64,000 nt of DNA from a virus (Duplodnaviria > Caudoviricetes): IMG/VR virus record IMGVR_UViG_3300028914_000003, positions 1 through 64,000 of that record. One strand, given 5' to 3'. Positions 46,132 to 61,947 of the stretch are shown here, piece by piece (position 1 is the first letter of the stretch; each line of letters begins with the position of its first letter). The notes below the pieces were generated by a model, which was not told the origin of the DNA, did no database searches, and saw only the letters and a program-made list of their open reading frames with translations. The position numbers and the translations under genes are program-made.

Positions 46132-46152
46132 AGTCGTATCTCGTTTTAGTTG

Positions 46153-46446
46153 TTAATCCCATTCACCGAAGGCGATGAGTCCGCAGACCTCGTTGTCGCA
46201 CGTCAGCACATACACAATCCATTCGTTGTCGAACTTCCAGAAGAACTCCTCCATGCCGTCGATGTCAGCGGGAGGTATCTCAGAGTGGTGATGACTCGCA
46301 ACATAGCCCGCAAGATTCTCTCCGTCCTCGGCAATACTCTCGACGCTCTTCAGGTGGTACTTGCCGTCATCCCAGTTGTCGTCATTAAACATACGCAGCG
46401 CTCTCAGCACCTCGTTGTTGCTCATTGCATAGCTTTCAATTTTCAT
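46153..46446 (-). CDS. Hypothetical acidic protein
   Basis: 97 aa. Confidence 0.65.
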   Translation of the reverse strand: MKIESYAMSNNEVLRALRMFNDDNWDDGKYHLKSVESIAEDGENLAGYVASHHHSEIPPADIDGMEEFFWKFDNEWIVYVLTCDNEVCGLIAFGEWD

Positions 46447-46462
46447 AATTGTCTCGATTTTA

Positions 46463-46494
46463 TTTGGTCGTTTCAAAAATTGTTCGTACCTTTG
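46463..46494 (+). promoter_or_regulatory. Consensus Bacteroidota sigma-A promoter, antisense to flanking genes
   Basis: TTTG (46463-66) - 20 nt - TACCTTTG (46487-94). Confidence 0.8.
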
Positions 46495-46499
46495 CACCC

Positions 46500-46690
46500 A
46501 GAAGATGGCCGATACCTATCGGCACAGCCATCTTTCGGACTTTAGAGAATTTTCACCCGAAGACGGATGAAAGTGAATCTCCAAATCCTGGCAAATACAA
46601 TCTCAACCATTGTAATGCAGGGTTTGAACGACGGGAATAAGCCCGTCTCTCAGGGAGCGAATAACTGACGTTCGCCCTCTTTTTTTATTT
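46500..46690 (+). ncRNA. Candidate ~190-nt structured small RNA
   Basis: Own promoter, four hairpins, then terminator GGGAGCGAA...TTCGCCCTC-T7. Confidence 0.55.
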
Positions 46691-46723
46691 GCGAATAATT
46701 CGTGGTAGTTCGTGTTCGTATCC

Positions 46724-48103
46724 TCACGCCGCCTTCTTCGTTTTCGTTTTCGTTGCCTTAGCATAGCTGCTGTGCTGGAACACAAACCGCACCGCCGCCA
46801 TGACGCTCACACTCCGTAAGCCGTCGGCGTGCATCGTGCTCATACACTCCCGCTGGCCTTTGCCAATCTCGATACCCACCAGCAGGTGCAGCATCATCCA
46901 GTCGAAGTCCGTCACCGTCACCTCGTCGTTGATGGCCGACGTGCTGAACGCCTCGGTCACGCTGCCAAGCTGCTGCAGGATCTTCGCCTTTGTGAGCACC
47001 GACATCTTGCGGTTTGTTTCAGACACGACCGCCCTTCCGTAACGCTCCTGCCATGGAGTAGGCTCGTTGCCGAACTTCAGCCACGGCTCGAACAGCCCGA
47101 TAACCTTGTCGACATCCTCCGTCACAGGGCCATCCTCCCATTCCAGGTGGACGTTTCCGAGGGCGTACTTGTCGGTCTTGAACTTGAACGTCGTGCCGGG
47201 GAACTTCGCCTTGAGCATCGTCTTCAGGTTGGCGACGGCCACCTCCTGCTTCTCCCTGTCCGATAGTCCGGCACTGATAGCAATCAGCTTCTCGCTCCAC
47301 TCCTCAATCAGCGGCTTCTGCTCGGCCAGCAGCTTCGCCTTGCGCTCCGCCTCGATGCGCAGCTGCTCCTGGCGCTTCCATGCAATCTCGGCAATCAGCG
47401 TGTCGAGCTGTGAGTGGAACATCGTGCCGTACATCGAAGGCATATAATACTCGCCAATGCTCTGGTCACCCTTGGGGTTGCCGAACATACAGTAGTGCTC
47501 TGAGCGGAACATCACCACCTTGGCTAAACGCCTTTCCTTGTGGATGCCATTGAAGGGGTCGGGTTTCTGCAAAACATCCCAGCCGCCGTAGATGTCGCCG
47601 GCCAGCCATTCATAGAAGAACGTTCCGAAGAACTCTTCATCGGTCATAGTGAACACCTTCTCAATCATCACCACCACCATCTCGTCGTTCACGCCATCCT
47701 TTAGCACGGCCTCCAGAACACCATCAGCTTTCTTGTCGCAGTAGGTGCCCTTCAACTTCCAGGCATAGACATACTCGCCAGCCTTCCATTCCAGGTGGCT
47801 CTTCTGCTTGTTCTTCCTCGCCTGCTCGATAGCCTGCTCCACCTTGCGGCGCTCACGCTCCTTGCGCTCACGCTCCGCCCGTTCCCTGGCCTCACGCTCC
47901 CTACGCTCCCTACCCTTGCGGGCCTTGGTATAGTCGCCAGCCAGCTCTGCCTTGCGCTCCTCATACTGCGCCTGCATCTCCTGGAACTTGGCGGTAGCCT
48001 CCGGGTCGTTGGGGTTCCTGTCCGGGTGCAACTGAATCACGAGCCGCTTGTGCTCCTGCTCCAGCTGCTCCGTAGTCATGCAATTATCGAAATATCCTTT
48101 CAT
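46724..48103 (-). CDS. J-domain (DnaJ HPD) protein with LPD29-like C-terminal domain
   Basis: LVIQLHPDRNP...AKFQEM; ANLKTMLKAKFPGTTF...WEDGP. Confidence 0.7.
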   Translation of the reverse strand: MKGYFDNCMTTEQLEQEHKRLVIQLHPDRNPNDPEATAKFQEMQAQYEERKAELAGDYTKARKGRERREREARERAERERKERERRKVEQAIEQARKNKQKSHLEWKAGEYVYAWKLKGTYCDKKADGVLEAVLKDGVNDEMVVVMIEKVFTMTDEEFFGTFFYEWLAGDIYGGWDVLQKPDPFNGIHKERRLAKVVMFRSEHYCMFGNPKGDQSIGEYYMPSMYGTMFHSQLDTLIAEIAWKRQEQLRIEAERKAKLLAEQKPLIEEWSEKLIAISAGLSDREKQEVAVANLKTMLKAKFPGTTFKFKTDKYALGNVHLEWEDGPVTEDVDKVIGLFEPWLKFGNEPTPWQERYGRAVVSETNRKMSVLTKAKILQQLGSVTEAFSTSAINDEVTVTDFDWMMLHLLVGIEIGKGQRECMSTMHADGLRSVSVMAAVRFVFQHSSYAKATKTKTKKAA

Positions 48104-48138
48104 GTTGCTTCAAAGTTTCATGTTTTATGTTTCAAGTT

Positions 48139-48468
48139 TCACGCTGCCATGCCATACCACATCCGCTCCAACTGGTTGCGCAACTCGTCGCACTCCTGTT
48201 TCGTAGGTTCGTGGTCGCAGGAGGCAAATGGCTTGTCGGCGGTGCCTACCCGGAAGTATGGCGTCCATGCAACATTCTCCTGCCAGAAGATAATCAGATA
48301 CCACCGCTTCCCATGCTTCTGCACGAGATAGCCGTCCCAGTCGCCAGCACTGCTGGTAGTGTTCCACAACTCAGCCCTCACCACGCCGTTCACATCGTTG
48401 GCAAGGAACCTCTCGGGAGCGTACCATGTACCCTCCACTTCCCATTTTCTGTTTGTCAATAGTGCCAT
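48139..48468 (-). CDS. Hypothetical protein
   Basis: 109 aa. Confidence 0.7.
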   Translation of the reverse strand: MALLTNRKWEVEGTWYAPERFLANDVNGVVRAELWNTTSSAGDWDGYLVQKHGKRWYLIIFWQENVAWTPYFRVGTADKPFASCDHEPTKQECDELRNQLERMWYGMAA

Positions 48469-48499
48469 AATCGCTGATGTTTTGATGTTTATAATCCGT

Positions 48500-48811
48500 T
48501 TACGCCTCGTAGCTCAGTTCAAAGTGGTGATACGTATAGTTCTCGTGGAAGATGAATCCGGCGATGTCGCCGAAGTACTCCCACTTTTCGAGCGTGTCTT
48601 CGGGATAGTCCATGAAGAGGTCATCCCGCATGTGCTGCTCAGCATACAGGCCAGGATATTCCTTGATGCACTCGTCAGCCTTCTTGCGGTACTTGTCGCG
48701 CTGCTTGTTGTAATACGCCTGCGCTTCCTCCAGGTTGTCAAAGCACTTGTCGGGATAGTTATGGTGACCGTCCGGCTCATAGTTTGCTCTGTGTGATACA
48801 ATGTACTCCAT
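48500..48811 (-). CDS. Hypothetical protein
   Basis: 103 aa. Confidence 0.7.
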   Translation of the reverse strand: MEYIVSHRANYEPDGHHNYPDKCFDNLEEAQAYYNKQRDKYRKKADECIKEYPGLYAEQHMRDDLFMDYPEDTLEKWEYFGDIAGFIFHENYTYHHFELSYEA

Positions 48812-48871
48812 AATTCTGAATGATTTTTTTGAATAATTTTCTGTTAATTTTGAGCGAAGCGACCCGATGAC

Positions 48872-49795
48872 TCAGGCCGCCTGCCTGAATTGTTTCAGCA
48901 GCGCGGCCCTTAACCTCTCCGCAAGAGTAGGCTCTGCCTTGGTTTCAGGTTTTACGTCGGCCCTATTGTCAACCACCACCGTTCCCAGATCCGCACCGAC
49001 CCACTTCTCCAGGTCGAACGTGCTGTAGTAGCGCTTGTCAACCGTACATGTAGTGACGTCGGCATCCAATAGAGGCATTATCAGCAGCAGCGTGTCCTCG
49101 CCGACGAACAGCACCGCACGGCTGCTGTCCACGAAGCGCATCTCCGTAGGCTGCATAGCCAGCAGGTCGCGCAGATACTTGCCGTTCAGCGATACCCACA
49201 TCTTGTAGGGCATCTCGCCGACGCCGACATCCTTCTGTCCGCGCTCGTCCATGTCGTAGTTCTCCCAGCAGAAAGCCAGCGTCTTGCTGCCCTGCTCTCC
49301 ATAGAGCCTGACGGGATAGATGCTGCTGTCCTGCTTTGCCACGATTTCCTTCAGCGCAGCGTCCCACGCCTTCCAGTCCACGTCAATAGGCCAGCCAGTA
49401 GTCTGGGGAATGACCGAACGCCAACGAGGATAGCGGCTCGTCTGCCGCAGCTCAGCCGTCTCGCCCTTCTCGTCGGTAGCCGTGGTCACCGTCTCGTAGC
49501 CGTCGATGGCCACCGTCACCTCTACCCTGCCCTTCATCTGCAGCACCTCCTTGGGCAGCATCATCATGTCGCCCAGCACAGCGCCGTCGCTCGGGTCAAA
49601 GTGATAGTCCTTCAGCTTGTGGGCCGCCAGCACATGGCCGGTAGTAGCCACCATGATACCCGTCTCCATCTCAATAGCCGGAAAAACCTTGAACACGTTA
49701 GGGTCTTTCTTTTCCAGACACTTCTTCATCTTCTGAAGCATCTTGTCGGCAGTGAACTGAATCCGTGCCGACACGTTTTTTGTCGTCTTTTTCAT
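48872..49795 (-). CDS. DNA polymerase III beta-clamp-like protein
   Basis: MVATTGHVLA, YPRWRSVIP, LNGKYLRDLL, LLLIMPL mirror DnaN motifs. Confidence 0.6.
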   Translation of the reverse strand: MKKTTKNVSARIQFTADKMLQKMKKCLEKKDPNVFKVFPAIEMETGIMVATTGHVLAAHKLKDYHFDPSDGAVLGDMMMLPKEVLQMKGRVEVTVAIDGYETVTTATDEKGETAELRQTSRYPRWRSVIPQTTGWPIDVDWKAWDAALKEIVAKQDSSIYPVRLYGEQGSKTLAFCWENYDMDERGQKDVGVGEMPYKMWVSLNGKYLRDLLAMQPTEMRFVDSSRAVLFVGEDTLLLIMPLLDADVTTCTVDKRYYSTFDLEKWVGADLGTVVVDNRADVKPETKAEPTLAERLRAALLKQFRQAA

Positions 49796-49990
49796 ACACG
49801 TATATGTTTGGGGGTTAATTACTGTCGTTCAAAAAGACCGGCGGGCTTCACAGCAGGCCGGGCTTCCACTCAAAATCATCAATGGGCCGCCGGAGCACCC
49901 GGCTGGCCCTACAATTATGAAAACACAAATGTATAGTGCCCCGCATCCCATCAAAGGGTAGGCTCTTGTGGCCGTGCAGGGCGATAGGGT

Positions 49991-50620
49991 TCAGTTCTGT
50001 ATCGACGTGAGAATGCCATTCTCGAAATACAGGTAGTTGTGTCCGCCGTAGCACCACTGCTCATGCTCGCCGTATCTTCCTGTGCTGCGGTTGATGTCGC
50101 GCGGCCTGCCCCAAGCCGCGCGGCACTGCTCGGCGGTCATGCCGAGGCACACCTGGCCCTTGTGGATAATCGTGGCCGTCTCCTCGTCACACCCGAGCTT
50201 CTCCATGATACGCTCGATAGGCTTCATCTTCGCACGCCTCTCCGCCTCTCGCCTGGCAGCTTCCGCCTCGGCCTTCTTTCGCGCCGCCTCCTGATCCTTC
50301 ACGGCCTGCTGGCAGATGCCGTTGGCCGTGACGTACTCCGCAGCGTCGGGGTGGTACTTCTTCATCATGGCGAGGTTCGTCTTCAGCGCGTCGTACTCCT
50401 TCGCCGCATAGTTCTCACGGATAGCGGCCAGCAGCTTGCCCGGTGCGTAGCGGTAGCCGTCCAGCTCCTTCTGCAGGTCGGCATAGTCAGCCGACAGTTT
50501 CTTACACACAGCCGTCAGGCTGTCCGTCATTCTCACCTGGGCGTCGTACTTTCTCTGGTCAACGCCACAACTCGTCAGCAGCATTACCACGGCTGCCGTC
50601 ATCCAAATAAATCTCTTCAT
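49991..50620 (-). CDS. Lipoprotein with C-terminal SmpA/DUF2845-like domain
   Basis: Lipobox LTSC; GMTAEQCRAAWGRP...EQWCY...YLYFENG. Confidence 0.7.
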   Translation of the reverse strand: MKRFIWMTAAVVMLLTSCGVDQRKYDAQVRMTDSLTAVCKKLSADYADLQKELDGYRYAPGKLLAAIRENYAAKEYDALKTNLAMMKKYHPDAAEYVTANGICQQAVKDQEAARKKAEAEAARREAERRAKMKPIERIMEKLGCDEETATIIHKGQVCLGMTAEQCRAAWGRPRDINRSTGRYGEHEQWCYGGHNYLYFENGILTSIQN

Positions 50621-50661
50621 AATCTCGTTGTTTTTTTAATGGGTTAATAATTCGTGATTGT

Positions 50662-51093
50662 TCAAATTTTCGCAATGATATCCTGGAACACGACGCTCTC
50701 GCTCCACCACTCCTCGGAGAGGTGGCCGTGCTCCTCGCCCCACTCTTCCAGCAGGTCATGCACCTCGTCGTCATAGTCCGTCTCCAAAGGCCGGCGCTGC
50801 TCGTAGCACACATTAACCTGTGCCTTAATCACTGCCACGATGCTTGCGCCAAGCTGCTCCCTCACATAGTTCAGAGCCTCGGTGAGCTCAGGGAAGCCAT
50901 CCTCCTCCGGCTCATCGTCCTCGTCGAAGTCCTCCACCTCGGCCTTCACGAAGCCGTCGGCATGAGCCGCATAGTAGAAGGGCTCGTTCTTCACCTTCTC
51001 CAGGGCGATGGCCTGTGCCTGCTCGTCCGTCTCAGCCTCGATGCCGTATAGTATCTTCGACACCGTGATATCCATAAACACTTTGTACTTCAT
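50662..51093 (-). CDS. Hypothetical acidic protein
   Basis: 143 aa. Confidence 0.65.
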   Translation of the reverse strand: MKYKVFMDITVSKILYGIEAETDEQAQAIALEKVKNEPFYYAAHADGFVKAEVEDFDEDDEPEEDGFPELTEALNYVREQLGASIVAVIKAQVNVCYEQRRPLETDYDDEVHDLLEEWGEEHGHLSEEWWSESVVFQDIIAKI

Positions 51094-51112
51094 AGTCTCT
51101 TTTCGTTTAAGT

Positions 51113-51511
51113 TCATTCACAAATCCACCAGAAACCCACATATAGCACGTTGCCCTCACGCTTGAACTCCACCTCGGCAGAGTCGGGCTCGATGCAGTTG
51201 TCCTTCAGTCCCGTCTCCCAGTCACGGAAGATGCCCTCATAGTAGCGGAAGAAGTCGTCACGCATAGAGAAGAAGTCCGTCACAGCCGGACAGGCCTTCA
51301 GCTCGATACGGATGGTGTTGCTCGACTCGCTCCACTGTGCATCGACGATGCAGTCCAGATAGAGGTTGTCGCAGTCCACTTTCACAGGCCCCGTCATGTG
51401 GCTCTTGCGGCCTTTCATGTCGGCGCACTCATAGCAGCCCTGGAACACCTCGTCACGCAGGCTGTCGTCAATCAGGTTCTTGCCGTCGAACGGCGCAGGT
51501 ATTCTTTTCAT
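51113..51511 (-). CDS. Hypothetical protein
   Basis: 132 aa. Confidence 0.7.
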   Translation of the reverse strand: MKRIPAPFDGKNLIDDSLRDEVFQGCYECADMKGRKSHMTGPVKVDCDNLYLDCIVDAQWSESSNTIRIELKACPAVTDFFSMRDDFFRYYEGIFRDWETGLKDNCIEPDSAEVEFKREGNVLYVGFWWICE

Positions 51512-51514
51512 AAC

Positions 51515-51757
51515 TCAGTTGCCGTTTTGTTTTAACAGTTCATACAGCGAGGGACCGCCCTTGCGCTCCTCGTCCACGTAGGCATCGACCATCCACTGGG
51601 GATAGACGCCGAACTTGACTTCCTTTACGTCGAAATAAAGCCCTCTGTAGTACGCTGCCTTTTCCAGACACTCTTGCTTCTTGCCGCCACATATCTGTGC
51701 AGCATACTTCTCTCCGTCGTGGAACTTAATCACGACGCAGTTTCCTTCAAATCCCAT
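51515..51757 (-). CDS. Hypothetical protein directly downstream of the ncRNA array
   Basis: 80 aa. Confidence 0.65.
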   Translation of the reverse strand: MGFEGNCVVIKFHDGEKYAAQICGGKKQECLEKAAYYRGLYFDVKEVKFGVYPQWMVDAYVDEERKGGPSLYELLKQNGN

Positions 51758-51784
51758 AATCGTTTTGATTTTTCGTTTTCGTTA

Positions 51785-52822
51785 ATTGACTGCCTCGCGG
51801 ACCGGCATAGTGCTTTAATAGCTTGATGATACACGAGCTGGGAAGCCCAGGCTTGGAGTCTGCCATCGAAGGTCTCGATGGCAAGACTCTCAAGCAGGGC
51901 TTATCCGAAAGCTCGAGTACTAAACAACTCCGCTCCACAATCTCATCGTGGCAGTATGCGCTGCCGCTGCTCATCATTCCTGACGCATGGCTTTATCAGG
52001 TCGATATCAACAGGTTAAGAACCTGGATGAAGACTGGGAATATCCCAGTCGGAATCCAGGTCTACTTTACCTGTTGGATAAATATGAATGCCTTGCAGCC
52101 ATCATACCACTGCGCTGTGGTCGTTCGTCCTGCTCTGCGGATACGGCATAGTGCTTTATCTCTCCGATGTCAAACAGTGTGAGCGAAGGCAGGCACGCCG
52201 TCGCTGGCATGGTAAGGCTTGCGACGGCGTGCCTGCCTTACGTTGAACACTGTTGATTAAATATCATCCGCCTTGCAGGATAGGGGCAGTATGCTCTGCC
52301 GTAGAAAGTGCTCCGTGCCCGGTGCGTTGGCTTTAGATGTTCGATGACAAGCTGGATGTCAGTACAGCTCATCAGATGCCCGCGGAGATAGTTCGCGGGC
52401 ATCAGATAGAGCTGGACTTCATAACATCCAGCTCGCTAAACATGGCACGTCTCACTGACCATAGCGGCGCACGCCGCTCTTTCCACCTCCCCGTGCTTGG
52501 TGTGTCGCTGTATCTCTCCGATGTTGCTAACCGGCTGGGGACGGTGATGCGCCTTCAGAGTACAGGTGATGCACCTGTATTCTGAGGCACTTCCCGTCAA
52601 TTGTTGCAGGTTAGCCTAAATCGTCGCACGTCCCGGTGGCTCATAGTCCACACTGACTAAGTGACTTCCGCCTTGCGGCCTGGCATAGGGCTATAATACT
52701 TCGATGATGACAGATCACGAAGGAGATCGGACCCTGACACCATAGGTTCAGGGTCCATCTCCGATAGAGTGATCTGTTATTAAATCTCTGCCGCCCTGCG
52801 GAAGCCATGCTGTATGCGCAGC
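51785..52822 (-). ncRNA. Array of six structured RT-associated ncRNA units: A 51785-51965, B 51966-52121, C 52128-52300, D 52307-52478, E 52483-52659, F 52665-52822
   Basis: GCTNTA-N6-YGATR at 51812, 51990, 52153, 52330, 52507, 52690 (spacing 163-183); each unit has a long hairpin, TAAA, closing stem and hexaloop hairpin. Confidence 0.85.
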
Positions 52823-52832
52823 CTCTCATGCC

Positions 52833-53990
52833 TTAGCGGTTACGGCGCTTGTCGCACGCAGCCTCCTTCGCCTCGCGCCACTCCTGACGCTTCTTCTCGA
52901 TGTCGATATGGTTCTCCTCAATCATCTGCTTCATCAGGCCGAACAGGCGCCAGCCCTCGTCCCAGTACAGCTCGGCGGCAGCGTCAAGCATCTCCAGAGA
53001 GCTCTTGCCGCGCTCATAGAAGTCGTTGTCCTTGGGGAACTTCGCACCGTGGAAGCGCAGCAGGTTCTGCATGGTGAAGTAGGCACCGGCACCCTTGTAG
53101 GCATCCTTCCAGCGGGCGCACTGCTTGTACTTACACATCCACTCCTTGCCATAGGCCTGCTTCCAGAACACACGCACAGCCGTCTCCAACTGCACGGGTG
53201 TCTTCGCGTGCCTGATGCCGGTGAGTGCAATACGCAGCGGCTGGATGAGCTTCTTGTCGATATCCTCGACGAACACGCCCTTGCCGAAGCCATTCACGCG
53301 GATATAGGGCGCACCCTTGCAGTGGCGGATGTCCTGCTTCAGCGCCACCTCGCGCAGCTGCTTGATGAAGTCCTCGGCCATGGCCACGCAGACCTCCTTG
53401 TTGAACCAGCGGCTGCGCGCCTCGAAGTTCTCCATGTCCTTGCCGTACATCTTCGCCTGGGCATGCAGCTCGTCGATGAGCATCTTCCACTGATACTCGT
53501 AGCCGTGACGCTCCATCCACTCGGTGAAGCCGATGAGACGGCCGTGGTAGTCACGCTCAGACAGGCCGCGGAATACCTGCGACATCACCCAGCGGCGGAA
53601 CAGGTTCTTATTTGGTACGGTGCCACCGCCGATAATCTGACGGATGACAGGATCGTCCTCGTTCACCTGCACGGGGCGTCCGTCCTCGTCATAGGTCATC
53701 AGGCACTCGCTGCCGTCGAGGGCAGTCATCGAGAAGTACTTCTTCGTACCGATGCCTGCCTTGTTCAGCGCCTCGGCACGCTTCGACACGGGCAGATAGA
53801 CGGTGCCCAGTCCGGAGTCAGCACCCAGCACCGTCACGTTCTTGGCCGTGTGCTCATGCTCTGCCAGGATATCGAACTCCGCGCCGCACTCCGGGCATAC
53901 CACGCGGGTAGGATTGTTGGTCACTGTAGTGCTCTTCTTGGTGGTAGCACTCTTCTTGTCAGTCACTGTAGTTGCTTTCTTTGTTGTCAT
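52833..53990 (-). CDS. RT-associated partner protein (N-terminal CPEC motif, helical core)
   Basis: 385 aa, embedded between ncRNA units, co-oriented with the RT. Confidence 0.75.
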   Translation of the reverse strand: MTTKKATTVTDKKSATTKKSTTVTNNPTRVVCPECGAEFDILAEHEHTAKNVTVLGADSGLGTVYLPVSKRAEALNKAGIGTKKYFSMTALDGSECLMTYDEDGRPVQVNEDDPVIRQIIGGGTVPNKNLFRRWVMSQVFRGLSERDYHGRLIGFTEWMERHGYEYQWKMLIDELHAQAKMYGKDMENFEARSRWFNKEVCVAMAEDFIKQLREVALKQDIRHCKGAPYIRVNGFGKGVFVEDIDKKLIQPLRIALTGIRHAKTPVQLETAVRVFWKQAYGKEWMCKYKQCARWKDAYKGAGAYFTMQNLLRFHGAKFPKDNDFYERGKSSLEMLDAAAELYWDEGWRLFGLMKQMIEENHIDIEKKRQEWREAKEAACDKRRNR

Positions 53991-54031
53991 AATTGTATGA
54001 ATTAAAGGGTTTATAAAAAAGTTATTGTTTG

Positions 54032-54317
54032 TCTATCGCCATTAACATGGCACATGGATATGCTCTGCTGATATAAATGCTTGATAAAAAAGCGTGTCTT
54101 ACTGCGATAGATAGTCAGGGTGTGCGCCCTGAAAATGCCTGCTCCTTGCGACAGAAGCACATGGCTATAGGTTGTCGATGATTGAGCTGTGGCGCCAGAA
54201 CAGGCGCCAGGATCCATCCACGGTGACAACCTGGACGGATCCAGGCGCCCGCTCTGGTTCAACCCAGCTCAACTAAACACGTTGTCGCCATAAGCAGGCG
54301 GGGCGGTGTGCGCCGCC
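54032..54317 (-). ncRNA. Two further units: G 54137-54317 (complete) and H 54032-54131 (lacks the long hairpin)
   Basis: GCTATA-N6-CGATG at 54164; GATATG-N6-TGATA at 54057; same closing stem and TGTGCG hexaloop hairpins. Confidence 0.8.
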
Positions 54318-54324
54318 AATAGTA

Positions 54325-55971
54325 TCACGCTGCCTCAGTCAGCGGCTCAGTCCACGACCGCAGCACCACGAGGTCGGTGTCGTTCTCGCTCTGCCAGAAC
54401 CAACCGCTACCTTCAGGCATCGTGAAACCCTGCAAGGCTTTCAGTAGCTCTCGCTCGGCCTGCTCACGGCTGATGCCATAGAGCATGTCGTCATCTGACA
54501 GCTCGCTTTCCGGCAGGGCATAGAACCGATGCGTCCGGTTCATCGTCTTCTCGCTCGGCACGGAGTGCTTGTAAGCAGCGTAAGCGGCTTCAAGCATCTC
54601 GATAGATGTCTGCTCCCCTCCCTCGGAGGGGTCGGGGGTGGCCTTGGGGTGGGTGGGCTGGATAATCGACAGCGAGCGCACCAGCGTGTCATACGCCGCA
54701 CGGCTCGTTCTTATCGCATTCTGCATACACCCCAGCGAGATATAGCCAGAGATATCGTCGCCCGTCTTGCGGCGGTTAGCCGAGACGTTGCGTCCCCTGC
54801 CTCTGACGATACATCCTACCTTGCCCTGCTTGTCATAGCCCAAGCCTCCGATTTTCCGCTTGCCGGTCTCGACGGCACGCAGGGCATCCATGACAAACGA
54901 GTTCATCGTGTCGATGTCCTCTCTGACATTGACGACACCGAGGATGCCCGTAGCCCACGAGTGACCCTGTCCGTCACCATGATAGAGATAGCGGTTCACC
55001 GAGTTCAGCGCCTTGGCAAATGAGATGCCATGATACCTGCCGTCCTTGCCTTTGACCTTGGCCTTGATAGTGCGTGTCTCTATCTCCTTCTGGAACTTCT
55101 TCAGCCGGCTGCTGCTCATAGACAAGCTCGCTCCCTTGATAGAGAAGCCGAGGAACTTGAACCAGTGCTTGTCATCCAGCCACTCGACTTTCTTCGGATT
55201 CAGGTGCATCTGCATCTTCTCCAGCTCCTCACTCAGCGCGTCCATAGCCTGCTTGGCATCAGGACCGATACACAGGATGTCGTCGCAATACCTGACGTAA
55301 TAGACATTCATCCCCGACAGCCGCTCGTCGATATGATAGAGTATCACGTCGGCCAGCCAGCTTGCCACGGCGCAGCCCTGCTTCAGGGAGCGGTACTTCT
55401 CCTTGACCACATGGTCGGTGTCGATATACAAGTCACTGTGGTAGTACTTCCTGAGCACATCCACCAGCGCGCTCTTGCCGCAGCGCTCCTCGACCATGTC
55501 AAATGCCTGGTCGATATACTCCGCGGGCACGGAGTCAAAGTACTTGCTCAAATCGGCCTTGAAGCCGATAGGGCCGTCAGCATCACGACTCGCCACGACG
55601 ATAGCCTGACTTGCCTCCTGCACCACCTTGCCGCAGCCGACACCCTTGAGGTACGACATACACCTCGGATGCACCTTGTCGCGGAACAGCTCGAAGAGCA
55701 TGTCATTCACGATACTCAGCACCACACGGTCGGCAGGCTCGTTGACACACACCTCGCGATACTCGCCCGGCGTGTCCTTCGGGATAAGGGCGATATGCGG
55801 CGGGGCAATCTCGTACTCTCCGGCCTTGATAGCCTTATAAATCTTGATGCGCACCTCCTCCTTACAGAGCTGGTACAGCCAGTTCTTAGGGATATCCTTC
55901 CCAACGCCCTTGGCGATAGCATACTCCCACCGCTCGGGCTCAAAGAACATCTGCAATAGTTTATCTTCCAT
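54325..55971 (-). CDS. Reverse transcriptase (unclassified/UG-type)
   Basis: IPKD..GEYREV, FKADLSKYFDSV, LKQGCAVASWLAD, YVRYCDD, FKFLGF; start MEDKLL at 55971 (alternative 55992). Confidence 0.92.
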   Translation of the reverse strand: MEDKLLQMFFEPERWEYAIAKGVGKDIPKNWLYQLCKEEVRIKIYKAIKAGEYEIAPPHIALIPKDTPGEYREVCVNEPADRVVLSIVNDMLFELFRDKVHPRCMSYLKGVGCGKVVQEASQAIVVASRDADGPIGFKADLSKYFDSVPAEYIDQAFDMVEERCGKSALVDVLRKYYHSDLYIDTDHVVKEKYRSLKQGCAVASWLADVILYHIDERLSGMNVYYVRYCDDILCIGPDAKQAMDALSEELEKMQMHLNPKKVEWLDDKHWFKFLGFSIKGASLSMSSSRLKKFQKEIETRTIKAKVKGKDGRYHGISFAKALNSVNRYLYHGDGQGHSWATGILGVVNVREDIDTMNSFVMDALRAVETGKRKIGGLGYDKQGKVGCIVRGRGRNVSANRRKTGDDISGYISLGCMQNAIRTSRAAYDTLVRSLSIIQPTHPKATPDPSEGGEQTSIEMLEAAYAAYKHSVPSEKTMNRTHRFYALPESELSDDDMLYGISREQAERELLKALQGFTMPEGSGWFWQSENDTDLVVLRSWTEPLTEAA

Positions 55972-55988
55972 AGTCGTAATCGTTTTAG

Positions 55989-56213
55989 TCATTCAAAAGT
56001 CTTCGACGCCAACGACTCGATAGTAAAGCCGCACAGCGTCATCATGATATCGTCTACAAACTGAGGGTCTTTCTCGTAGGCATCCATGAGCCTGCGGAAC
56101 TTCTTGCGCGACGGCTCTTCGTCGCTTGCCATCTCGTCACCGATGGTGATGAAGAAATCGTCCATCAGGTCCTCGTCGTTGGCAATCTTGATAAGATTAG
56201 GGTCTGTCAGCAT
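55989..56213 (-). CDS. Hypothetical protein upstream of the RT
   Basis: 74 aa. Confidence 0.65.
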   Translation of the reverse strand: MLTDPNLIKIANDEDLMDDFFITIGDEMASDEEPSRKKFRRLMDAYEKDPQFVDDIMMTLCGFTIESLASKTFE

Positions 56214-56226
56214 ATTCGTATCGTAT

Positions 56227-56589
56227 TTAGTAACTCATAAAATGCAGGTATCCGTCACGGGTGTCGGCCTCCTGCTGATAGCTCTTCATAATCTTCAGCA
56301 CCTCCTCGGCCGTCATCTTCAGAGCATTCAGGTGCTCCTTGATGTCGTCGCTCTCGTCGAGCAGCGTCGGGTCGCTGATATACACCTCGAGGTTCTGCAC
56401 CGCGTCGTTATAGTCCCCCACGGTGCACTCGAAGATGTCGCTCGGACAGTCCACATCACCGCAGACATAGTTAGGCTCACCGCCCAGCGCACCGAGCAGG
56501 TCATAGAACTTGTCGTGGCTGTAGTTGAACGCCTCCGTATTGCCAAACTCCACCTCGTAGTGCTTGGCTACATGTAATCTCTTTCCCAT
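56227..56589 (-). CDS. Hypothetical protein
   Basis: 120 aa. Confidence 0.7.
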   Translation of the reverse strand: MGKRLHVAKHYEVEFGNTEAFNYSHDKFYDLLGALGGEPNYVCGDVDCPSDIFECTVGDYNDAVQNLEVYISDPTLLDESDDIKEHLNALKMTAEEVLKIMKSYQQEADTRDGYLHFMSY

Positions 56590-56595
56590 AATTGT

Positions 56596-56967
56596 TTATT
56601 TTTCGATTTCGCATTTGGTTATTGTCAACTCGATGTGGTCGGTGGGATAGTAGCCTTGCTTGCAGGCTCGGTAGAGCATGGACTCGTCGTGCTCCACCTC
56701 CCAGTCCTTGCGCTTCACATACTGGAGGATAGACTCGTCGCCGCCGTCATCCAGCAGGAAGTCGTGCATATACTTCACGGCTGCATCCTCAGTCGGGAAT
56801 ACCTTGACGATAATGTCGGCACACTCGCCGTCCCACGCCTGCTCGCCGGTAAACACCCAGACATACTCCGGCTTGCTCTCTGCAATAGCATGCAGCGACT
56901 CCGAAATATCATGGAGCAGGTTCGGCACCCGCTCCATGAACTGTTGTTCTAATACTGTCATAGTCAT
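56596..56967 (-). CDS. Hypothetical protein
   Basis: 123 aa. Confidence 0.7.
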   Translation of the reverse strand: MTMTVLEQQFMERVPNLLHDISESLHAIAESKPEYVWVFTGEQAWDGECADIIVKVFPTEDAAVKYMHDFLLDDGGDESILQYVKRKDWEVEHDESMLYRACKQGYYPTDHIELTITKCEIEK

Positions 56968-57006
56968 TGTCGTTAAAGTTAGTGATATCCGTATTCCAGT
57001 GCAAGG

Positions 57007-58044
57007 TCACGCCGCCATAGGCAGGGCCACAGGCCCCTCCATCGCCTTGCGGATAGCATCGTACTTCCGCAGGATATAGTTCGTGGCCGACTGCACCTGG
57101 TCGATGACCTTGGGGATAAACTCCTTGTCGCTCTTCAGCGCCTGCCGCCAGTTCTGCACATAGGCGATGTGGTTCTCATCCAGCAGCTTGCCGATGCCGA
57201 GCATCGAGCAGACGCAGGCCGACGACAGCTCCGCCACGAACTCCTCCATGGCATAGTCCTCGTCGCCGAAGTGTCCCTTCACCTCGCGCTTCACGTCGGG
57301 AGCGGTAGAGTGCGCCATCTCATGCAGCGCCGTGGCATAGAACCGCTCGTCGCCCAGGAACTGACTGCGCTCTGGCAGACAAATCTTGTCCTGCGTCGGC
57401 GAATAGTAGCACTCATGCCCCTTGAACTCAATCTTGCAGCGCCACTCGCCCTGCATGATCATACGCTCCAACACCTCGTCCACTGTGCCGTGTACATAGT
57501 CGTGCTCTGGCACTCTCGTCAAATTTTCCCACTTGTCAGGGAACTTCTCCCTGAAGTCGGTCTGCGATAGGTTGAACTCCGGAAAGGCACGCATAGAGAA
57601 ATACTTGCGGCACTCGTCCTTCTCCTCCTGCGACAGCGCGTCATACTCCTTAGCGGTCAGGCGGTTGCCGTCCTTGTCGTAAATCTTCGGGAGCATCTTC
57701 ACCACGGGGAAACTGCTCTCGAACTGCGGCATACCGTTGTCCTTGAACTTCGGCATACCCTGCTCGTCCATAGCCAGGTTTAGGCTCAGCCCCATCTCCG
57801 TCAGCTGCTCGAACGTCAGGAACATAGGCACCTCCCACCCCTTCACGGCGCACAGCAGCGTCAGGAAGAAGTCGTTCATCCCTCGATAGGGCTTCTTATA
57901 CTTGTAGTTGCAAGGCGACCCGTGTCTCGGTGCCACCCACGGCTTCTGATAGTTCGCGCCCTCCATCGTGTCGAGCGCCGTAGCGAACAACTCCGCATAC
58001 TTTTCCTTCTGCTTGTCGTTCATCGTGAATTGTTTCTTTGCCAT
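57007..58044 (-). CDS. ardC: ArdC-family antirestriction protein (ssDNA-binding + zincin metallopeptidase)
   Basis: KPW...PYRGMN...FLTFEQ; YYSPTQDKICLP; ALHEMAHST; YAMEEFVAEL; YVQNW. Confidence 0.85.
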   Translation of the reverse strand: MAKKQFTMNDKQKEKYAELFATALDTMEGANYQKPWVAPRHGSPCNYKYKKPYRGMNDFFLTLLCAVKGWEVPMFLTFEQLTEMGLSLNLAMDEQGMPKFKDNGMPQFESSFPVVKMLPKIYDKDGNRLTAKEYDALSQEEKDECRKYFSMRAFPEFNLSQTDFREKFPDKWENLTRVPEHDYVHGTVDEVLERMIMQGEWRCKIEFKGHECYYSPTQDKICLPERSQFLGDERFYATALHEMAHSTAPDVKREVKGHFGDEDYAMEEFVAELSSACVCSMLGIGKLLDENHIAYVQNWRQALKSDKEFIPKVIDQVQSATNYILRKYDAIRKAMEGPVALPMAA

Positions 58045-58075
58045 AGTCACTTCGTTTTAGTTTCAAGTTTCACGT

Positions 58076-58558
58076 TTAACCCATATAGGTTGTCTGCCAG
58101 TCATCGCACGACGGGTCGAGCGTGGTAGCACGGAACGACAGGTCGTTGCATCCGCAGGGCGTAAACAGGTGGAAGTCCTCGCCACGATAGCCGCTCTTGA
58201 AGTCAGCCTTCCATGCGGCATAGTTGTGCATGATGGCGTCCATAGTCACATTAAATCCGTTGGCCTTGAACTCTTCCATAATCTTACGGGCACGCCCCGG
58301 TTTCAGATCCCACACATTAGGCAGGTCGATGTCATACTCACGATAGGGAAACCCCTCCTTGATGTCACGGCCGCTAAAGTTCATTTCATTCAGCGTAGGC
58401 CAGTCGCACGTCTTCCACTCGTCGTCGCCCGGCTCCACATACTGCATAGTCTGCATGTTCACCTTAATCTCCCAGTTCCACGGCAGGAAGCAGTCCTTGC
58501 CCTCGATGACGAACCAGTGGGAGTCGCTGGCTTGCCTCGTTGTTCTGATAGTCTCCAT
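58076..58558 (-). CDS. Hypothetical protein
   Basis: 160 aa. Confidence 0.7.
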   Translation of the reverse strand: METIRTTRQASDSHWFVIEGKDCFLPWNWEIKVNMQTMQYVEPGDDEWKTCDWPTLNEMNFSGRDIKEGFPYREYDIDLPNVWDLKPGRARKIMEEFKANGFNVTMDAIMHNYAAWKADFKSGYRGEDFHLFTPCGCNDLSFRATTLDPSCDDWQTTYMG

Positions 58559-58651
58559 AATCTGGATATTTTTGAGTTAAATTTTGAGCGGAGTGACCCA
58601 ATAGAGTCACCCCGCCCATTCGTGAAATCCGTGCAATCCGTGGTCGAAAAG

Positions 58652-60268
58652 TTATGCCGCCTTGCTCATGGCATTGACAATCTCCATAGCCTCCTTGTCG
58701 CCTGCCACCACACGCTTGATAAGGTCAGCCACCTCGGCCTCTGTATAGGTCTTGCCCTTGGGCTCGTCCTCCTTGGCAGCCTTGCGCTCCTCGCGCTTCT
58801 GCTTCCACTCTTCCCGCGTCCGGGCACGCTCCTCGGTAGCCTTGTCGATGATTGACTGGCAGTCCTTGAGTGCCTTGCCTGCGTTCAGCGCGTCGCACAC
58901 CTCCTTGGCAGCGTCGGCATAGCGAGGACCAAAGATGAGATAGAAAGTCTTGCCTCCGTCCTTGTTGCGCTCATAGGTAGCCGATCCGTGCAAGTCGGCA
59001 GCGTTCACGTAGGCAGGGTCGTTCTCGCCAAAGCCCAGAATACGGGCACACGTCTTGCCCTTCTTGTTGGTGTAGGTCGAATAGGTCAGCTTGCCGTCAG
59101 CCTTGGCCTTCGGCTCCTGCTTCTTAGGCTTGCCGCTCTTCTTTGCCTTAGGCATCTCGATAGTCTTAGCGGTAGTCTTGGCAGGCTCCACCTTGATGTC
59201 GTCCACCTCCTCGACCTCGTCGGCAGGTGTCTCGGCAGCGGTATCGCCCTGCAGTTTCCACACCTTGTCGGAGAGCATCTTCTCCAACTGTGCCAGCTTG
59301 ATAGGCATGGGGATAGCGGCAGCGTCGCCCTTTTTGAACTCACCCTGCAGGGTGTCATCCTCTGCACTCTTGATAGTAATACTTGCGACGTTGTCGCCTA
59401 CGATAATCACTTTGCCGATAAGGTCGGCGGCCTTCATGTTGTTCTGTGCCATAGTTGTTTGATTTTTATTGTTTGACTCTTCCGTGGCGGTAGTAATCTG
59501 TTCGGTGATGCCACGCTTCACCAGCTTCTTCGTTAGTTTCGGGTCCTCCAATTCGTCGCAGATAGCGACCCGCTTGCCAGCTCGGATGAGCTTGGGCAGA
59601 TAGGTGTCGAGTGCATGGTGGGGGAACATAGCCATCTGATAGCCGTCCTTATGGGTGGTCAGCGTAATGCCCAGTATCTTCGCGCACTCCACCGCGTCCT
59701 CACAATACGCCTCGTAGAAGTCGCCGCAGCGGAACAGCAGCAGCGCATCGGGATGTTTTGCTTTCAAGTCCTTAAACTGCTTCATCGTCTTCTGTCCCAT
59801 AGTCTCACTCGGTTTTTCGTTGGCGCTCTCTCTTGCAGCCCGCACCTGAGCCTTCACCATAGCCTCGTTCTTCACGTTCTTCATGAACTCGCAGGTGCTT
59901 GCCGTATAGCCGTACAGCGCAACCGACTTCATCAGGTGTTTCAGATGCTCCCAGTCACGCTCGTTGAACAGATAGGCGATGTCATCCTTTGCCTGCTGAA
60001 GAGCAGCCGCCATCACGTCGATGGTCTTCTGCGAGTTCTTCGGGCTGTCCTTTACATCCACCCAGATAGTGTCCGTCAGCGGATTGCCGCTGAAGTCGAA
60101 CGTGCAGCCGTAGCCGCCCCAGTCCGTCTTCCACCCTGCATGGATATTCGCATAGAAGCCCCTACCCTTGCGGTAGCCGGCCGTCACGTTAAGCACGTCA
60201 TACGTCTGTCCCTCGTGCTCATAGGGAGTCACTCCAATATAGAAGTTCTTGTCTTCAATCTTTGCCAT
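58652..60268 (-). CDS. Polyvalent protein with a MutS domain I; probable second in-frame start at 59452
   Basis: [18 protein letters not shown]...[24 protein letters not shown]. Confidence 0.75.
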
Positions 60269-60276
60269 ACTCTTAC

Positions 60277-60648
60277 TCAGTTTAGCATCCACTTAAACTC
60301 AATCTCACGCTCGTCTTTGTGATTGTCCAATAGCTTATCAATCCACGCCACGAGCGACCAGGGGTCGAGCGTCTTGAAATACTTGCGTAGACGCCCGATA
60401 GTGTTTTCATCTTTCAGCACGAGGTTCGTCTGCAAATCCAGCAGCTTCATGTAGCTGATACGGAACTCGCTGCCGATAGAATAGCAGCCCATATAGATTT
60501 CGCCGGCCATGTCAAGCAGGCACTGGGTCACGGTTTCCCTCACGACGGCTTTCTTCGTTTCGATGCCAGTCGCTTCATAGACGGGCATATCAGTAACCAT
60601 AGCGGCACACAGCTGCATAGGTCTTGTGGTATCAGGAAATACGCTCAT
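60277..60648 (-). CDS. Hypothetical protein
   Basis: 123 aa. Confidence 0.65.
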
Positions 60649-60650
60649 AG

Positions 60651-60911
60651 TCAGTCCTCCAATATATAGTCCGAATAGTCCTCCACCTTGAAGATGACAT
60701 CAAGCAGCCACTTGAAGTTCCTCATGCTCACGGTCACAGCCGACCGCCCGTAGTGCTCCCAGTAGATATACTCCTTGCCGTAGCTCGGCGAACCATAACG
60801 GTCGCACACGCCGATAAAGCATAATGCAGTCCCGTACTTCAGCGTCCAGCCTGCCTTTAGCCTCTGATAAGCCTCACGCAGTTTCTCTCGCTTTGTCATT
60901 TTCTTCTCCAT
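60651..60911 (-). CDS. Hypothetical protein
   Basis: 86 aa. Confidence 0.65.
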   Translation of the reverse strand: MEKKMTKREKLREAYQRLKAGWTLKYGTALCFIGVCDRYGSPSYGKEYIYWEHYGRSAVTVSMRNFKWLLDVIFKVEDYSDYILED

Positions 60912-60915
60912 AGTT

Positions 60916-61239
60916 TCACGCTGCTTTGTCTAAGTCTTTCATCCATCCCTCGGCCACCACCTCGGTCTCGTTGTAGCCGTCAGGGGTGGCGATAATCTGA
61001 TAGCGGGCATCGTCGCGTGTCAGCGTAGCGAACAGCGTAGTCCACCCGTGCTCCTTAGCCTGCTTGCGCCACCCAGCCAGATAGCGCAGCGCCGTCTTCA
61101 CCAGCTTCACCGATACGCGGTTGAAGTCGCGCTCGGCTATGCGATTGCCATTCTCGTCGCGCTTGCCCTCCAGATACAGGGCTTCGCGATAGGTATCAGC
61201 ACCATACCAGTGCTGAATAATGTAAGTCTGCTTTGCCAT
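60916..61239 (-). CDS. Hypothetical protein
   Basis: 107 aa. Confidence 0.7.
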   Translation of the reverse strand: MAKQTYIIQHWYGADTYREALYLEGKRDENGNRIAERDFNRVSVKLVKTALRYLAGWRKQAKEHGWTTLFATLTRDDARYQIIATPDGYNETEVVAEGWMKDLDKAA

Positions 61240-61242
61240 ACC

Positions 61243-61356
61243 TCACGCTGCTTTTCTGATAAACATGGGCACCAGCTGCTGTGCCTCGTTATTGCTCACG
61301 TGCAGGGCGACCGCAATCTGGCGGCGCACCTTGTTGATAGAAATTCTCTTCGCCAT
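61243..61356 (-). CDS. Small basic protein (37 aa, ends RKAA)
   Basis: Manual translation; ACGACTATG start context. Confidence 0.5.
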   Translation of the reverse strand: MAKRISINKVRRQIAVALHVSNNEAQQLVPMFIRKAA

Positions 61357-61677
61357 AGTCGTTTATTTTTTTAGTTACACACTTCGTCACGCAGATAGTC
61401 TCTGAACGATACATTTACTCTCGTTGCGTCTTGACGCTGCCATGCAAGGTAGTCGTCATAGACCTCTTGGATAGTTCTCATCATAGTCATGCCAGTGAAT
61501 AAGTTTCATACACTCCTACCCCACTCGATTGCAGGGTACGCCCTATGCGCCATGCCTGATGGCGTAGATAGGACACAGCACCTGCACTCAATCGGTAGGC
61601 TGCAATAATCTCGCCGCAGAGAAGCATACTCCATGCCTCGCTCCACGATAGGAAATTCTTTCGTCTCGGTTTCATAT

Positions 61678-61944: not shown

Positions 61945-61947
61945 AGT

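What the first reader, a model, noticed from the sequence alone, without database searches (positions are those of the whole stretch)
51785..55992. Phage reverse transcriptase system with an array of 8 sequence-diverse, structure-conserved ncRNA units and a partner protein
SEEN: minus-strand order is RT (YCDD) > unit G > unit H > 385-aa gene > units F,E,D,C,B,A. Read on the + strand, every unit has: outer stem P1a / 3-4-nt pyrimidine-rich internal loop / P1b; GCTNTA-N6-YGATR with the 6-nt spacing fixed in all 8; a ~70-90-nt imperfect hairpin unique to each unit; TAAA; P1b'/P1a'; then a small 4-5-bp hairpin with a hexaloop. H lacks the long hairpin. Hairpin examples: C has a perfect 19-bp stem 52186-52204/52221-52239; F spans 52707-52780; G spans 54182-54272. 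P1 examples: C TCCTGC..GCGGAT/ATCCGC..GCAGGA; F CTTCCGC..GCGGC/GCCGC..GCGGAAG; G GCCTGCT..GCGACA/TGTCGC..AGCAGGC; E CCACC..CGTGC/GCACG..GGTGG. KNOWN: retrons use one msr-msd RNA closed by a1/a2 repeats to make one hairpin msDNA. This RT has no retron NAxxH/VTG motifs, and no DGR TR/VR pair or group II intron RNA is evident. INFERENCE: one RT uses many cassettes of a common scaffold, each carrying a different hairpin template, producing a set of ssDNA hairpins (YGATR...hairpin...TAAA). Its place among darB-like, ardC and polyvalent genes suggests counter-defence or host takeover.
Basis: partly seen in the sequence, partly recalled or inferred. Interest (0 to 1): 0.97.

Follow-up and report, generated by a model that had tools for sequence, protein, structure and literature searches.

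The report
Phage UG27 reverse-transcriptase hairpin-RNA array

Summary
Eight units lie at 51790-52822 and 54033-54317. All are read on the minus strand, the strand of the RT. They share a basal hairpin, a two-part closing stem, the motifs UUUA and AUC-N7-UANAGC around a unit-specific 73-94-nt hairpin, and a covarying pseudoknot. Unit H has the scaffold but no hairpin.

The system is not new. The RT is a UG27 class-2 UG/Abi RT (E 7e-198), and the 385-aa partner is its known large accessory protein (cluster 337). bioRxiv 10.64898/2026.09.22.753630 (24 Sep 2026) describes these ncRNA arrays. For five homologous systems it shows RT-dependent 50-100-nt hairpin cDNAs that start at AUC and end after UUYA.

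A model built from the eight units found 251 further units beside related RTs, all on the RT strand, and none in control DNA.

Modest additions from this locus:
- an RT-sORF fusion clade in rumen phages;
- an array split around the large accessory gene;
- a recurrent empty unit;
- hairpins conserved above synonymous sites, yet replaceable.

This scan has already flagged UG27 arrays on DNA of at least 49 other genomes.

The parts
54325..55992 (-). RT-sORF fusion gene (555 aa). The UG27 reverse transcriptase domain is residues 8-441 (54670-55971) with catalytic YCDD. A Pro-rich linker at about residues 446-466 follows, then a C-terminal domain at residues 462-550 (54343-54609) homologous to the free-standing small accessory protein (cluster 346 / sORF).
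   Evidence: PADLOC RT_UG27 E 7e-198 and RTas346 E 5e-22. Pfam RVT_1 2e-20. The C-terminus is 43% identical to free sORFs of L013 and L059, E 1e-25 and 7e-24, and those sORFs hit RTas346 at 1e-60. The fusion is conserved in relatives with ORFs of 530-594 aa. Translation.
54137..54317 (-). ncRNA unit G (181 nt). The predicted cDNA is the + strand 54177-54277 (101 nt).
   Evidence: CM hit at 106 bits; fold; pseudoknot GCACA:UGUGC; 13 orthologues with a near-invariant hairpin apex.
54033..54131 (-). ncRNA unit H (99 nt), an 'empty' unit. It has the basal hairpin, the pseudoknot, the P1 stem and a degenerate motif (AUC-N7-UAUAUC), but UUUA overlaps AUC, so there is no template hairpin. It ends 42 nt upstream of the bORF start codon.
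   Evidence: CM hit at 54.7 bits. Orthologues 83-87% identical in L001 and L135, and similar short units at the same position in L003, L118/L119 and L121.
52833..53990 (-). bORF, the large accessory protein (385 aa, cluster 337). It has an N-terminal CPxCG zinc-ribbon-like segment, a small beta domain and a C-terminal all-helical domain. It has no recognisable fold or family.
   Evidence: PADLOC RTas337 E 4e-114; no Pfam or PHROG hit; 616 representative clusters of homologues. The AF2 model has pLDDT 89.4. No significant PDB match by sequence or fold.
52665..52822 (-). ncRNA unit F (158 nt). Predicted cDNA is the + strand 52703-52784 (82 nt).
   Evidence: 11 orthologues.
52483..52659 (-). ncRNA unit E (177 nt). 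Predicted cDNA is the + strand 52520-52620 (101 nt).
   Evidence: pseudoknot GUGUG:CACAC. In a contig of an independent sample the hairpin is replaced by 99 other letters inside a kept scaffold.
52307..52478 (-). ncRNA unit D (172 nt). Predicted cDNA is the + strand 52343-52440 (98 nt).
   Evidence: pseudoknot GUGCG:CGCAC, shifted by 1 nt.
52128..52300 (-). ncRNA unit C (173 nt). Predicted cDNA is the + strand 52166-52261 (96 nt). It has a perfect 19-bp stem.
   Evidence: Another sample shows two exactly compensatory double substitutions in the stem: 52191/52234 and 52194/52231.
51966..52121 (-). ncRNA unit B (156 nt). Predicted cDNA is the + strand 52003-52082 (80 nt).
   Evidence: The pseudoknot GCGCA:UGCGU has one G-U pair, which would be an A-C mismatch on the other strand.
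51790..51965 (-). ncRNA unit A (176 nt), the last of the array. Predicted cDNA is the + strand 51825-51924 (100 nt). A 16-nt insertion sits in the 5' side of P1, and the 3' arm of P1a can alternatively pair within the basal hairpin.

Best explanation
This is a complete UG27 reverse-transcriptase system (class 2 UG/Abi) of a 132.6-kb phage from a ruminant gut.

Inferred from co-orientation: the minus strand is transcribed through the RT-sORF gene, units G and H, the bORF and units F to A.

Shown here by folding and covariation: each ~155-180-nt unit folds into a 5' basal hairpin and a two-part closing stem (P1a, a purine-rich internal loop, P1b). An asymmetric loop holds UUUA on the 5' side and AUC-N7-UANAGC on the 3' side of a unit-specific long hairpin. 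A 5-bp pseudoknot joins the basal hexaloop to the bases 2 nt after UANAGC.

Inferred from experiments on five homologous systems, not on this one: the RT, with the sORF domain and the bORF, starts DNA synthesis opposite AUC, copies the long hairpin and stops after UUUA. That would give seven ssDNA hairpins of 80-101 nt and nothing from the empty unit H.

What the DNA hairpins do is unknown. My best guess (about 0.3) is that they act as sequence- or shape-specific ligands for proteins during infection, for example as sponges for host or phage DNA-binding factors, not as antisense guides. The reasons are that their apical sequences are conserved and no complementary target was found.
For: Proteins: RT_UG27 at 656 bits against 122 bits for the next group; RTas337 at E 4e-114; RTas346 on the RT C-terminus.

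Motifs and orientation match the published AUCNNNNNNNUANAG and UUYA.

The covariance model built from the 8 units finds only these 8 in the window and in the whole genome. It finds 118 + 133 units beside related RTs, all 251 on the RT strand. It finds none in 304 kb of unrelated viral contigs.

Covariation: 88.6% of cells are paired, against 49.6% in shuffles and 34-42% in slid controls, and 24 of 24 pairs show compensatory changes. The pseudoknot was not part of the model. It is 94.6% paired against 4-59% when slid, with AU72/GC30 and CG60/UA33.

Predicted cDNA lengths of 80-101 nt fit the published 50-100 nt. The YCDD motif is intact.

Selection on the hairpins: two compensatory double changes in the stem of C; 22 of 57 pairs with compensatory changes among G orthologues; cargo identity of 63-88% in most orthologues against about 54% at RT third codon positions and a 40% baseline for unrelated cargos.

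No target: no cargo match elsewhere in the phage beyond 13 nt. In 401 Bacteroidales genomes the array of units A-F (G not queried) gave only three marginal hits, at about the chance rate.
Against: No RNA or cDNA data exist for this phage; only DNA contig runs hold it. The alignment behind the nested-pair covariation was fitted to the model, and many units are orthologues, so sequences are not independent. The RT has YCDD where the tested systems have YSDD. The sORF is fused and lacks the first ~48 residues of free sORFs, so this variant's activity is assumed. The priming mechanism is unknown even in the preprint text I read. The functional guess (protein ligand or sponge) has no direct support: restriction-site decoys and shared stem words were tested and not supported.
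Confidence: 0.87

Rival explanations
1. The units are functional only as RNAs (protein sponges, regulatory or processing signals of the operon). In this fused variant the RT does not copy them, or copies something else.
For: No expression or cDNA data exist for this locus. The empty unit H is conserved although it cannot template a hairpin, which shows that a scaffold alone can be kept. The scaffold is well conserved.
Against: Five homologous systems from disparate branches all make cDNA from every unit's hairpin. The start and stop motifs AUC and UUUA are invariant in the seven full units. The catalytic YCDD is intact and all three protein components are kept.
Confidence: 0.07
2. It is a retron-like defence or addiction module: multiplexed msr-msd units whose msDNA guards an effector, with the 385-aa protein as the effector.
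For: The overall logic resembles a retron: closing stems around a hairpin that is reverse-transcribed, and an accessory protein. The preprint notes a generic retron-type RT domain match.
Against: The RT classifies as UG27, and no retron model is among the best 25 PADLOC hits. There are eight templates, not one. The system sits in a complete 132-kb phage genome among early, anti-restriction-like genes. UG27 shows no defence-island enrichment (PMC9226505). In homologues the 385-aa protein is required for making the cDNA, not only downstream of it. It has no toxin-like fold.
Confidence: 0.03
3. The cDNA hairpins are double-stranded decoys that carry the recognition sites of host restriction enzymes.
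For: The phage genome avoids palindromes to an extreme degree (CTAG 0 against 180 expected; six hexamers at 0), so host restriction is a strong pressure. ArdC-like and DarB-like genes are neighbours.
Against: None of the avoided sites occurs in any hairpin. They could not, without putting the site into the phage's own dsDNA. The palindromes that do occur (GGATCC, GGCGCC, CTCGAG, CCGCGG, CAATTG) are not strongly avoided, with observed/expected ratios of 0.41-1.28.
Confidence: 0.05

Closest known systems
UG27 reverse-transcriptase systems with variable ncRNA arrays (Mestre et al. 2022, NAR, PMC9226505; 'Minerva' preprint, bioRxiv 10.64898/2026.09.22.753630, 24 Sep 2026)
   Same: RT group, large accessory protein (cluster 337 / bORF) and small accessory protein (cluster 346 / sORF). 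A phage location. An array of ~150-180-nt, sequence-diverse, structure-conserved units on the RT strand. A basal hairpin plus pseudoknot. AUC-N7-UANAG and UUYA bracket a unit-specific hairpin. Predicted hairpin cDNAs of 80-101 nt. No complementarity to phage or host genomes.
   Different: The sORF is fused to the RT C-terminus, giving 555 aa, whereas the preprint treated 380-450 aa as the canonical RT length. The array is split: two units between the RT and the bORF, six after the bORF. One unit is an empty scaffold. The catalytic motif is YCDD, not YSDD. The phage is from a rumen, not the human gut. This locus itself has not been tested.
Retrons (msr-msd ncRNA plus RT plus effector)
   Same: An RT copies a hairpin that is enclosed by a closing stem of the same transcript into a short ssDNA hairpin, and accessory protein(s) are encoded beside it.
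   Different: There are eight templates per RT, not one. The RT group differs (UG27). The system is phage-encoded. No branched msDNA is known for it. The accessory proteins are needed for synthesis itself.
DRT2, DRT3 and DRT9 (UG2, UG3+UG8, UG28): UG/Abi RTs with a single structured ncRNA template
   Same: They belong to the same UG/Abi RT superfamily. A neighbouring structured ncRNA with a pseudoknot serves as template.
   Different: Per the preprint's summary, those systems make long or concatemeric cDNA from one ncRNA, and they are host defence systems. UG27 makes many short discrete hairpins and lies in phages.

Membership tests
UG27 RT system | The RT belongs to the UG27 group of class 2 UG/Abi RTs | tested here: met
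   PADLOC RT_UG27 E 7e-198, 655.7 bits, covering profile positions 1-420 of 420. The next best is RT_UG26 at 121.8 bits.
UG27 RT system | Large accessory protein (cluster 337 / bORF) encoded beside the RT | tested here: met
   ORF 52833-53990(-) hits RTas337 at E 3.8e-114.
UG27 RT system | Small accessory protein (cluster 346 / sORF) | tested here: met
   It is present as a C-terminal domain of the RT: residues 462-550 hit RTas346 at E 5e-22. This domain is 43% identical to free sORFs. It lacks the first ~48 profile positions. No separate sORF lies in the neighbouring small ORFs.
UG27 RT system | Array of ~150-170-nt structured ncRNA units on the RT strand | tested here: met
   There are 8 units, all on the minus strand. 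Relatives carry 251 units, all on the RT strand, with length modes of 150-160 and 170-180 nt.
UG27 RT system | The conserved motifs AUCNNNNNNNUANAG and UUYA bracket the central hairpin | tested here: met
   The motifs are exact in 7 of 8 units and degenerate in H (UAUAU).
UG27 RT system | Basal hairpin and pseudoknot | tested here: met
   Five different complementary 5-mer pairs occur among the 8 units. Across 110 distinct units 94.6% are paired, with compensatory changes.
UG27 RT system | RT-dependent 50-100-nt ssDNA copies of each central hairpin | not testable with these tools
   Only DNA contig runs hold the locus. The predicted products are 80-101 nt.
UG27 RT system | Encoded in a phage or prophage | tested here: met
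   The genome is a complete virus record of 132,635 bp with direct terminal repeats.
Retron | RT of the retron clade with one msr-msd per RT | tested here: not met
   No retron RT model is among the best 25 PADLOC hits. There are eight templates. I saw no NAxxH or VTG motif when reading the translation.
Diversity-generating retroelement | Template repeat / variable repeat pair near the RT | tested here: not met
   No direct repeat of 35 nt or more above 71% identity lies within 44000-64000.
Group II intron | Intron RNA domains around the RT ORF | tested here: not met
   No Rfam family reaches its gathering score in the window.

The most novel reading that the evidence does not exclude
The hairpin cargos are sequence-specific effectors carried in a fixed RNA scaffold and exchanged as cassettes. 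The apex of cargo G is nearly invariant in 14 phages whose RT third codon positions are only ~54% identical. Other cargos are replaced outright inside a kept scaffold. An empty cassette is conserved just upstream of the bORF. The rumen clade with the RT-sORF fusion would then be a natural two-protein minimal form of UG27, which argues for a direct RT-sORF contact.
Probability: 0.4. Interest if true: 0.6.

Novelty: new member of a known kind. Interest (0 to 1): 0.35.

Why it matters
UG27 is the only known RT system in which one enzyme turns an array of RNA cassettes into a set of different short DNA hairpins. It is common in gut and rumen phages, and its role is an open question. This locus does not open a new class, but it gives useful handles:
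- a natural RT-sORF fusion, which is evidence of the Rosetta-stone kind that the two proteins act together and gives a simpler construct;
- an empty scaffold unit, which separates scaffold from cargo;
- evidence that cargo sequence, not only cargo pairing, is under selection while cargos can still be swapped.

The last point bears on whether the DNAs are specific ligands and on using the scaffold to produce ssDNA of choice.

Tried and rejected
- Rfam (gathering thresholds) and ARAGORN on the whole window: nothing.
- MAFFT + RNAalifold on the 8 units recovered only the basal hairpin. I supplied a hand-made rough structure and let the covariance model realign.
- Strand choice by folding energy or G-U counts: inconclusive. 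The strand was settled by the published motif orientation, the gene strand and the 251/251 hits on the RT strand.
- An own-versus-other pseudoknot permutation that allowed G-U pairs was not discriminating, because the loops are related. It was replaced by the column test.
- Searching IMG/VR for the 15-mer of the G apex: 40 contigs, of which only the 5 already known relatives have units. The rest look like chance.
- Restriction-site decoy idea: not supported.
- Cargo complementarity to the phage's own genome: none. The array of units A-F, searched against 401 Bacteroidales genomes, gave only chance-level hits; G was not queried.
- bORF function: no Pfam, PHROG or PDB sequence match. Foldseek gave no hit at E <= 0.001. 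VIA-align gave only generic helical-bundle matches with Z <= 7.4 over residues 156-287.
- Complex prediction of RT-sORF with bORF: no verdict (score 0.00), so no evidence either way.
- Sigma-70 promoter and terminator scan: at chance level.
- Sequencing runs: no RNA holder listed. Contigs cannot show expression.

Full report
**What is there.** The minus strand of 51790-55992 carries, in order:
- a 555-aa ORF (54325-55992);
- two non-coding units, G (54137-54317) and H (54033-54131);
- a 385-aa ORF (52833-53990);
- six abutting units, F, E, D, C, B and A (52822 down to 51790).

All seven are on the + strand within the units. Unit H has one mismatch. With one mismatch allowed there are 26 matches against 12.9 +/- 3.2 in shuffles. 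Rfam and ARAGORN find nothing in the window.

**The proteins.** The 555-aa protein has Pfam RVT_1 (2e-20) and the catalytic motif YCDD.
- PADLOC places residues 8-441 in RT_UG27 (E 7e-198, 656 bits; the next group, UG26, scores 122 bits).
- Residues 462-550 fall in RTas346.
- The 385-aa protein is RTas337 (E 4e-114).

Clusters 337 and 346 are the two accessory genes that Mestre et al. 2022 associated with UG27 (PMC9226505). The RT C-terminal domain is 43% identical to free-standing ~150-aa sORFs of related loci (E 1e-25 and 7e-24), and those sORFs are clean RTas346 members. A Pro-rich linker precedes the domain. All three UG27 proteins are therefore present, two of them fused. The fusion is not an assembly error: RT ORFs of 530-594 aa recur in the closest relatives (66-88% identity), which come from rumen, bovine and goat samples. 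More distant relatives (53-64%) have a ~420-aa RT and a separate sORF.

**Prior art.** bioRxiv 10.64898/2026.09.22.753630 (24 Sep 2026) reports that UG27 loci hold variable arrays of ~150-nt ncRNA units. Each unit has a basal hairpin, a pseudoknot and the motifs AUCNNNNNNNUANAG and UUYA around a central hairpin. Five systems expressed in E. coli made 50-100-nt ssDNAs that start at AUC and end after UUYA. Production needed the RT active site, the sORF and the bORF. The role of the cDNAs is stated to be unknown, with no obvious complementarity to phage or host.

**Structure of the units.** As minus-strand RNA, all seven full units fold into the same plan:
- a basal hairpin of 4-6 bp with a hexaloop;
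- the stems P1a and P1b, separated by a purine-rich 3-4-nt internal loop on both sides;
- UUUA;
- a 73-94-nt imperfect hairpin (dG -40 to -70 kcal/mol);
- AUC-N7-UANAGC.

The hexaloop pairs with five bases that start 2 nt after UANAGC. Five different complementary pairs occur among the eight units: GCAUA:UAUGC, GCGCA:UGCGU, GUGCG:CGCAC, GUGUG:CACAC and GCACA:UGUGC.

**Model search and covariation.** A covariance model built from the eight units with a rough hand-made structure gave these results:
- It finds only these eight units in the window and in the whole 132,635-bp genome.
- It finds 118 units in 36 related loci and 133 in 28 further rumen loci. All 251 are on the RT strand.
- It finds none in 304 kb of unrelated viral contigs.

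On the 118-unit alignment, 88.6% of cells are paired, against 49.6% in shuffles and 34-42% in slid controls. All 24 pairs show compensatory changes. That alignment was fitted to the model, so it leans towards the structure. The pseudoknot was not in the model and is therefore the cleaner test. It is 94.6% paired, against 4-59% when slid, with AU72/GC30 and CG60/UA33 at the two variable positions.

**Predicted products.** The predicted cDNAs are 51825-51924, 52003-52082, 52166-52261, 52343-52440, 52520-52620, 52703-52784 and 54177-54277, that is 80-101 nt. In unit H, UUUA overlaps AUC, so there is no template.

**What differs from the published description.**
1. *RT-sORF fusion.* The preprint's pipeline treated 380-450 aa as the canonical RT length, and its main text does not mention fusions.
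2. *Split array.* In the fusion clade 0-5 units lie between the RT and the bORF and 4-8 lie after the bORF, with 4-10 units per locus. Unfused relatives have RT, units, sORF, bORF.
3. *Empty units.* Short units of 85-110 nt sit directly upstream of the bORF in the window and in L001, L003, L118/L119, L121 and L135. H is 83-87% identical to two of them. A short unit in L058 is an F orthologue with an internal cargo deletion.
4. *Orthologous, syntenic units.* F, E, D, C and A match the 1st, 2nd, 3rd, 4th and 6th units after the bORF in L001 and/or L006.

**Selection on the cargo hairpins.** In the G family (14 members) the hairpin apex is almost invariant, while the basal hairpin and the lower stem vary with compensation. 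Against the window:
- RT third codon positions are 47-56% identical;
- scaffolds are 62-87% identical;
- cargos are 45-88% identical.

The baselines for non-orthologous units are 51% for scaffolds and 40% for cargos. Most cargos are thus conserved above the synonymous level, but some sit at the unrelated baseline inside a recognisable scaffold.

Contigs from an independent gut sample (X4) show this directly:
- Unit E's hairpin (52525-52625) is replaced by 99 other letters between matching flanks.
- The 354 nt holding H and G are replaced by 446 other letters.
- The 19-bp stem of C carries two exactly compensatory double changes (52191/52234 and 52194/52231).

**Function.** Nothing here identifies a target.
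- Cargos have no match elsewhere in the phage beyond 13 nt. The array of units A-F, searched against 401 sampled Bacteroidales genomes, gave only chance-level hits apart from a relative's own array; unit G was not queried.
- The genome avoids palindromes to an extreme degree: CTAG 0 against 180 expected; AAGCTT, ATGCAT, CATATG, CTTAAG and TTCGAA all 0; GATC at 0.33. None of the avoided sites is in a hairpin, so a restriction-site decoy is not supported.
- Shared stem words are not significant.
- The bORF folds confidently (pLDDT 89.4) into an N-terminal zinc-ribbon-like part and a helical domain, with no informative match.
- A complex prediction gave no verdict.

It holds a 1669-aa Eco57I-methylase/SNF2-helicase protein (DarB-like), a DnaJ+LPD29 protein, an ArdC-N+MPTase-PolyVal protein and a MutS-domain-I protein, all co-oriented with the RT. 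ArdC-like or MutS_I genes also lie upstream of the RT in relatives. This fits an early or counter-defence gene block but proves nothing.

**Verdict.** The system is already published, so this locus is a new member with minor variant features. Earlier notes of this scan record UG27 arrays in at least 49 other genomes, with the same conclusion.

Noticed in passing
whole genome (window 1-64000 and the rest of the 132,635-bp record): Palindrome avoidance is extreme. CTAG occurs 0 times (180 expected). AAGCTT, ATGCAT, CATATG, CTTAAG and TTCGAA all occur 0 times (9-25 expected each). TTTAAA occurs once, GTGCAC twice, ATCGAT 4 times, and GATC is at 0.33 of expectation. This points to heavy restriction pressure from the host(s).
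   Followed up: partly
window 52525-52625 and 54024-54377: In contigs of an independent gut metagenome, the template hairpin of unit E is replaced by 99 unrelated letters between matching flanks. The segment holding units H and G is replaced by 446 other letters. This looks like cassette-like cargo and unit turnover in near relatives.
   Followed up: partly
window 54493-54639: Summed contig depth is 4- to 20-fold higher than in neighbouring bins in all four runs laid. The stretch codes for the Pro/Gly-rich linker between the RT and the sORF domain and is G-rich on the + strand. It probably shares words with unrelated contigs.
   Followed up: no
window 41122-46131 (-): A 1669-aa protein has weak Eco57I-type methylase and SNF2/helicase-C matches, an architecture like DarB of phage P1. 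A DnaJ+LPD29 protein lies at 46724-48103.
   Followed up: no
window 58652-60292 (-) and L009:2690-3718, L042:3489-4613: A protein with MutS domain I only (E 5e-33) recurs a few genes upstream of the UG27 RT in this phage and in relatives. Its role in a phage is unclear.
   Followed up: no
L007:3946-4146 and 4768-4972; L042:4663-4834; L141:2175-2525; L145:2173-2373: Some relatives also carry units upstream of the RT gene, on the same strand. This window has none there.
   Followed up: no
L058:8116-8225: A 110-nt unit is an orthologue of window unit F. It matches positions 1-55 and 95-147 of F, so the middle of the cargo hairpin has been deleted. This is one way in which short or empty units could arise.
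   Followed up: partly
window 51747-51977, 51823-52182, 52337-52585, 54011-54262: ORFs of 76-119 aa listed by the mechanical ORF finder overlap the ncRNA units. They are probably spurious and could mislead automatic annotation. The preprint reports the same problem in one of its genomes.
   Followed up: no
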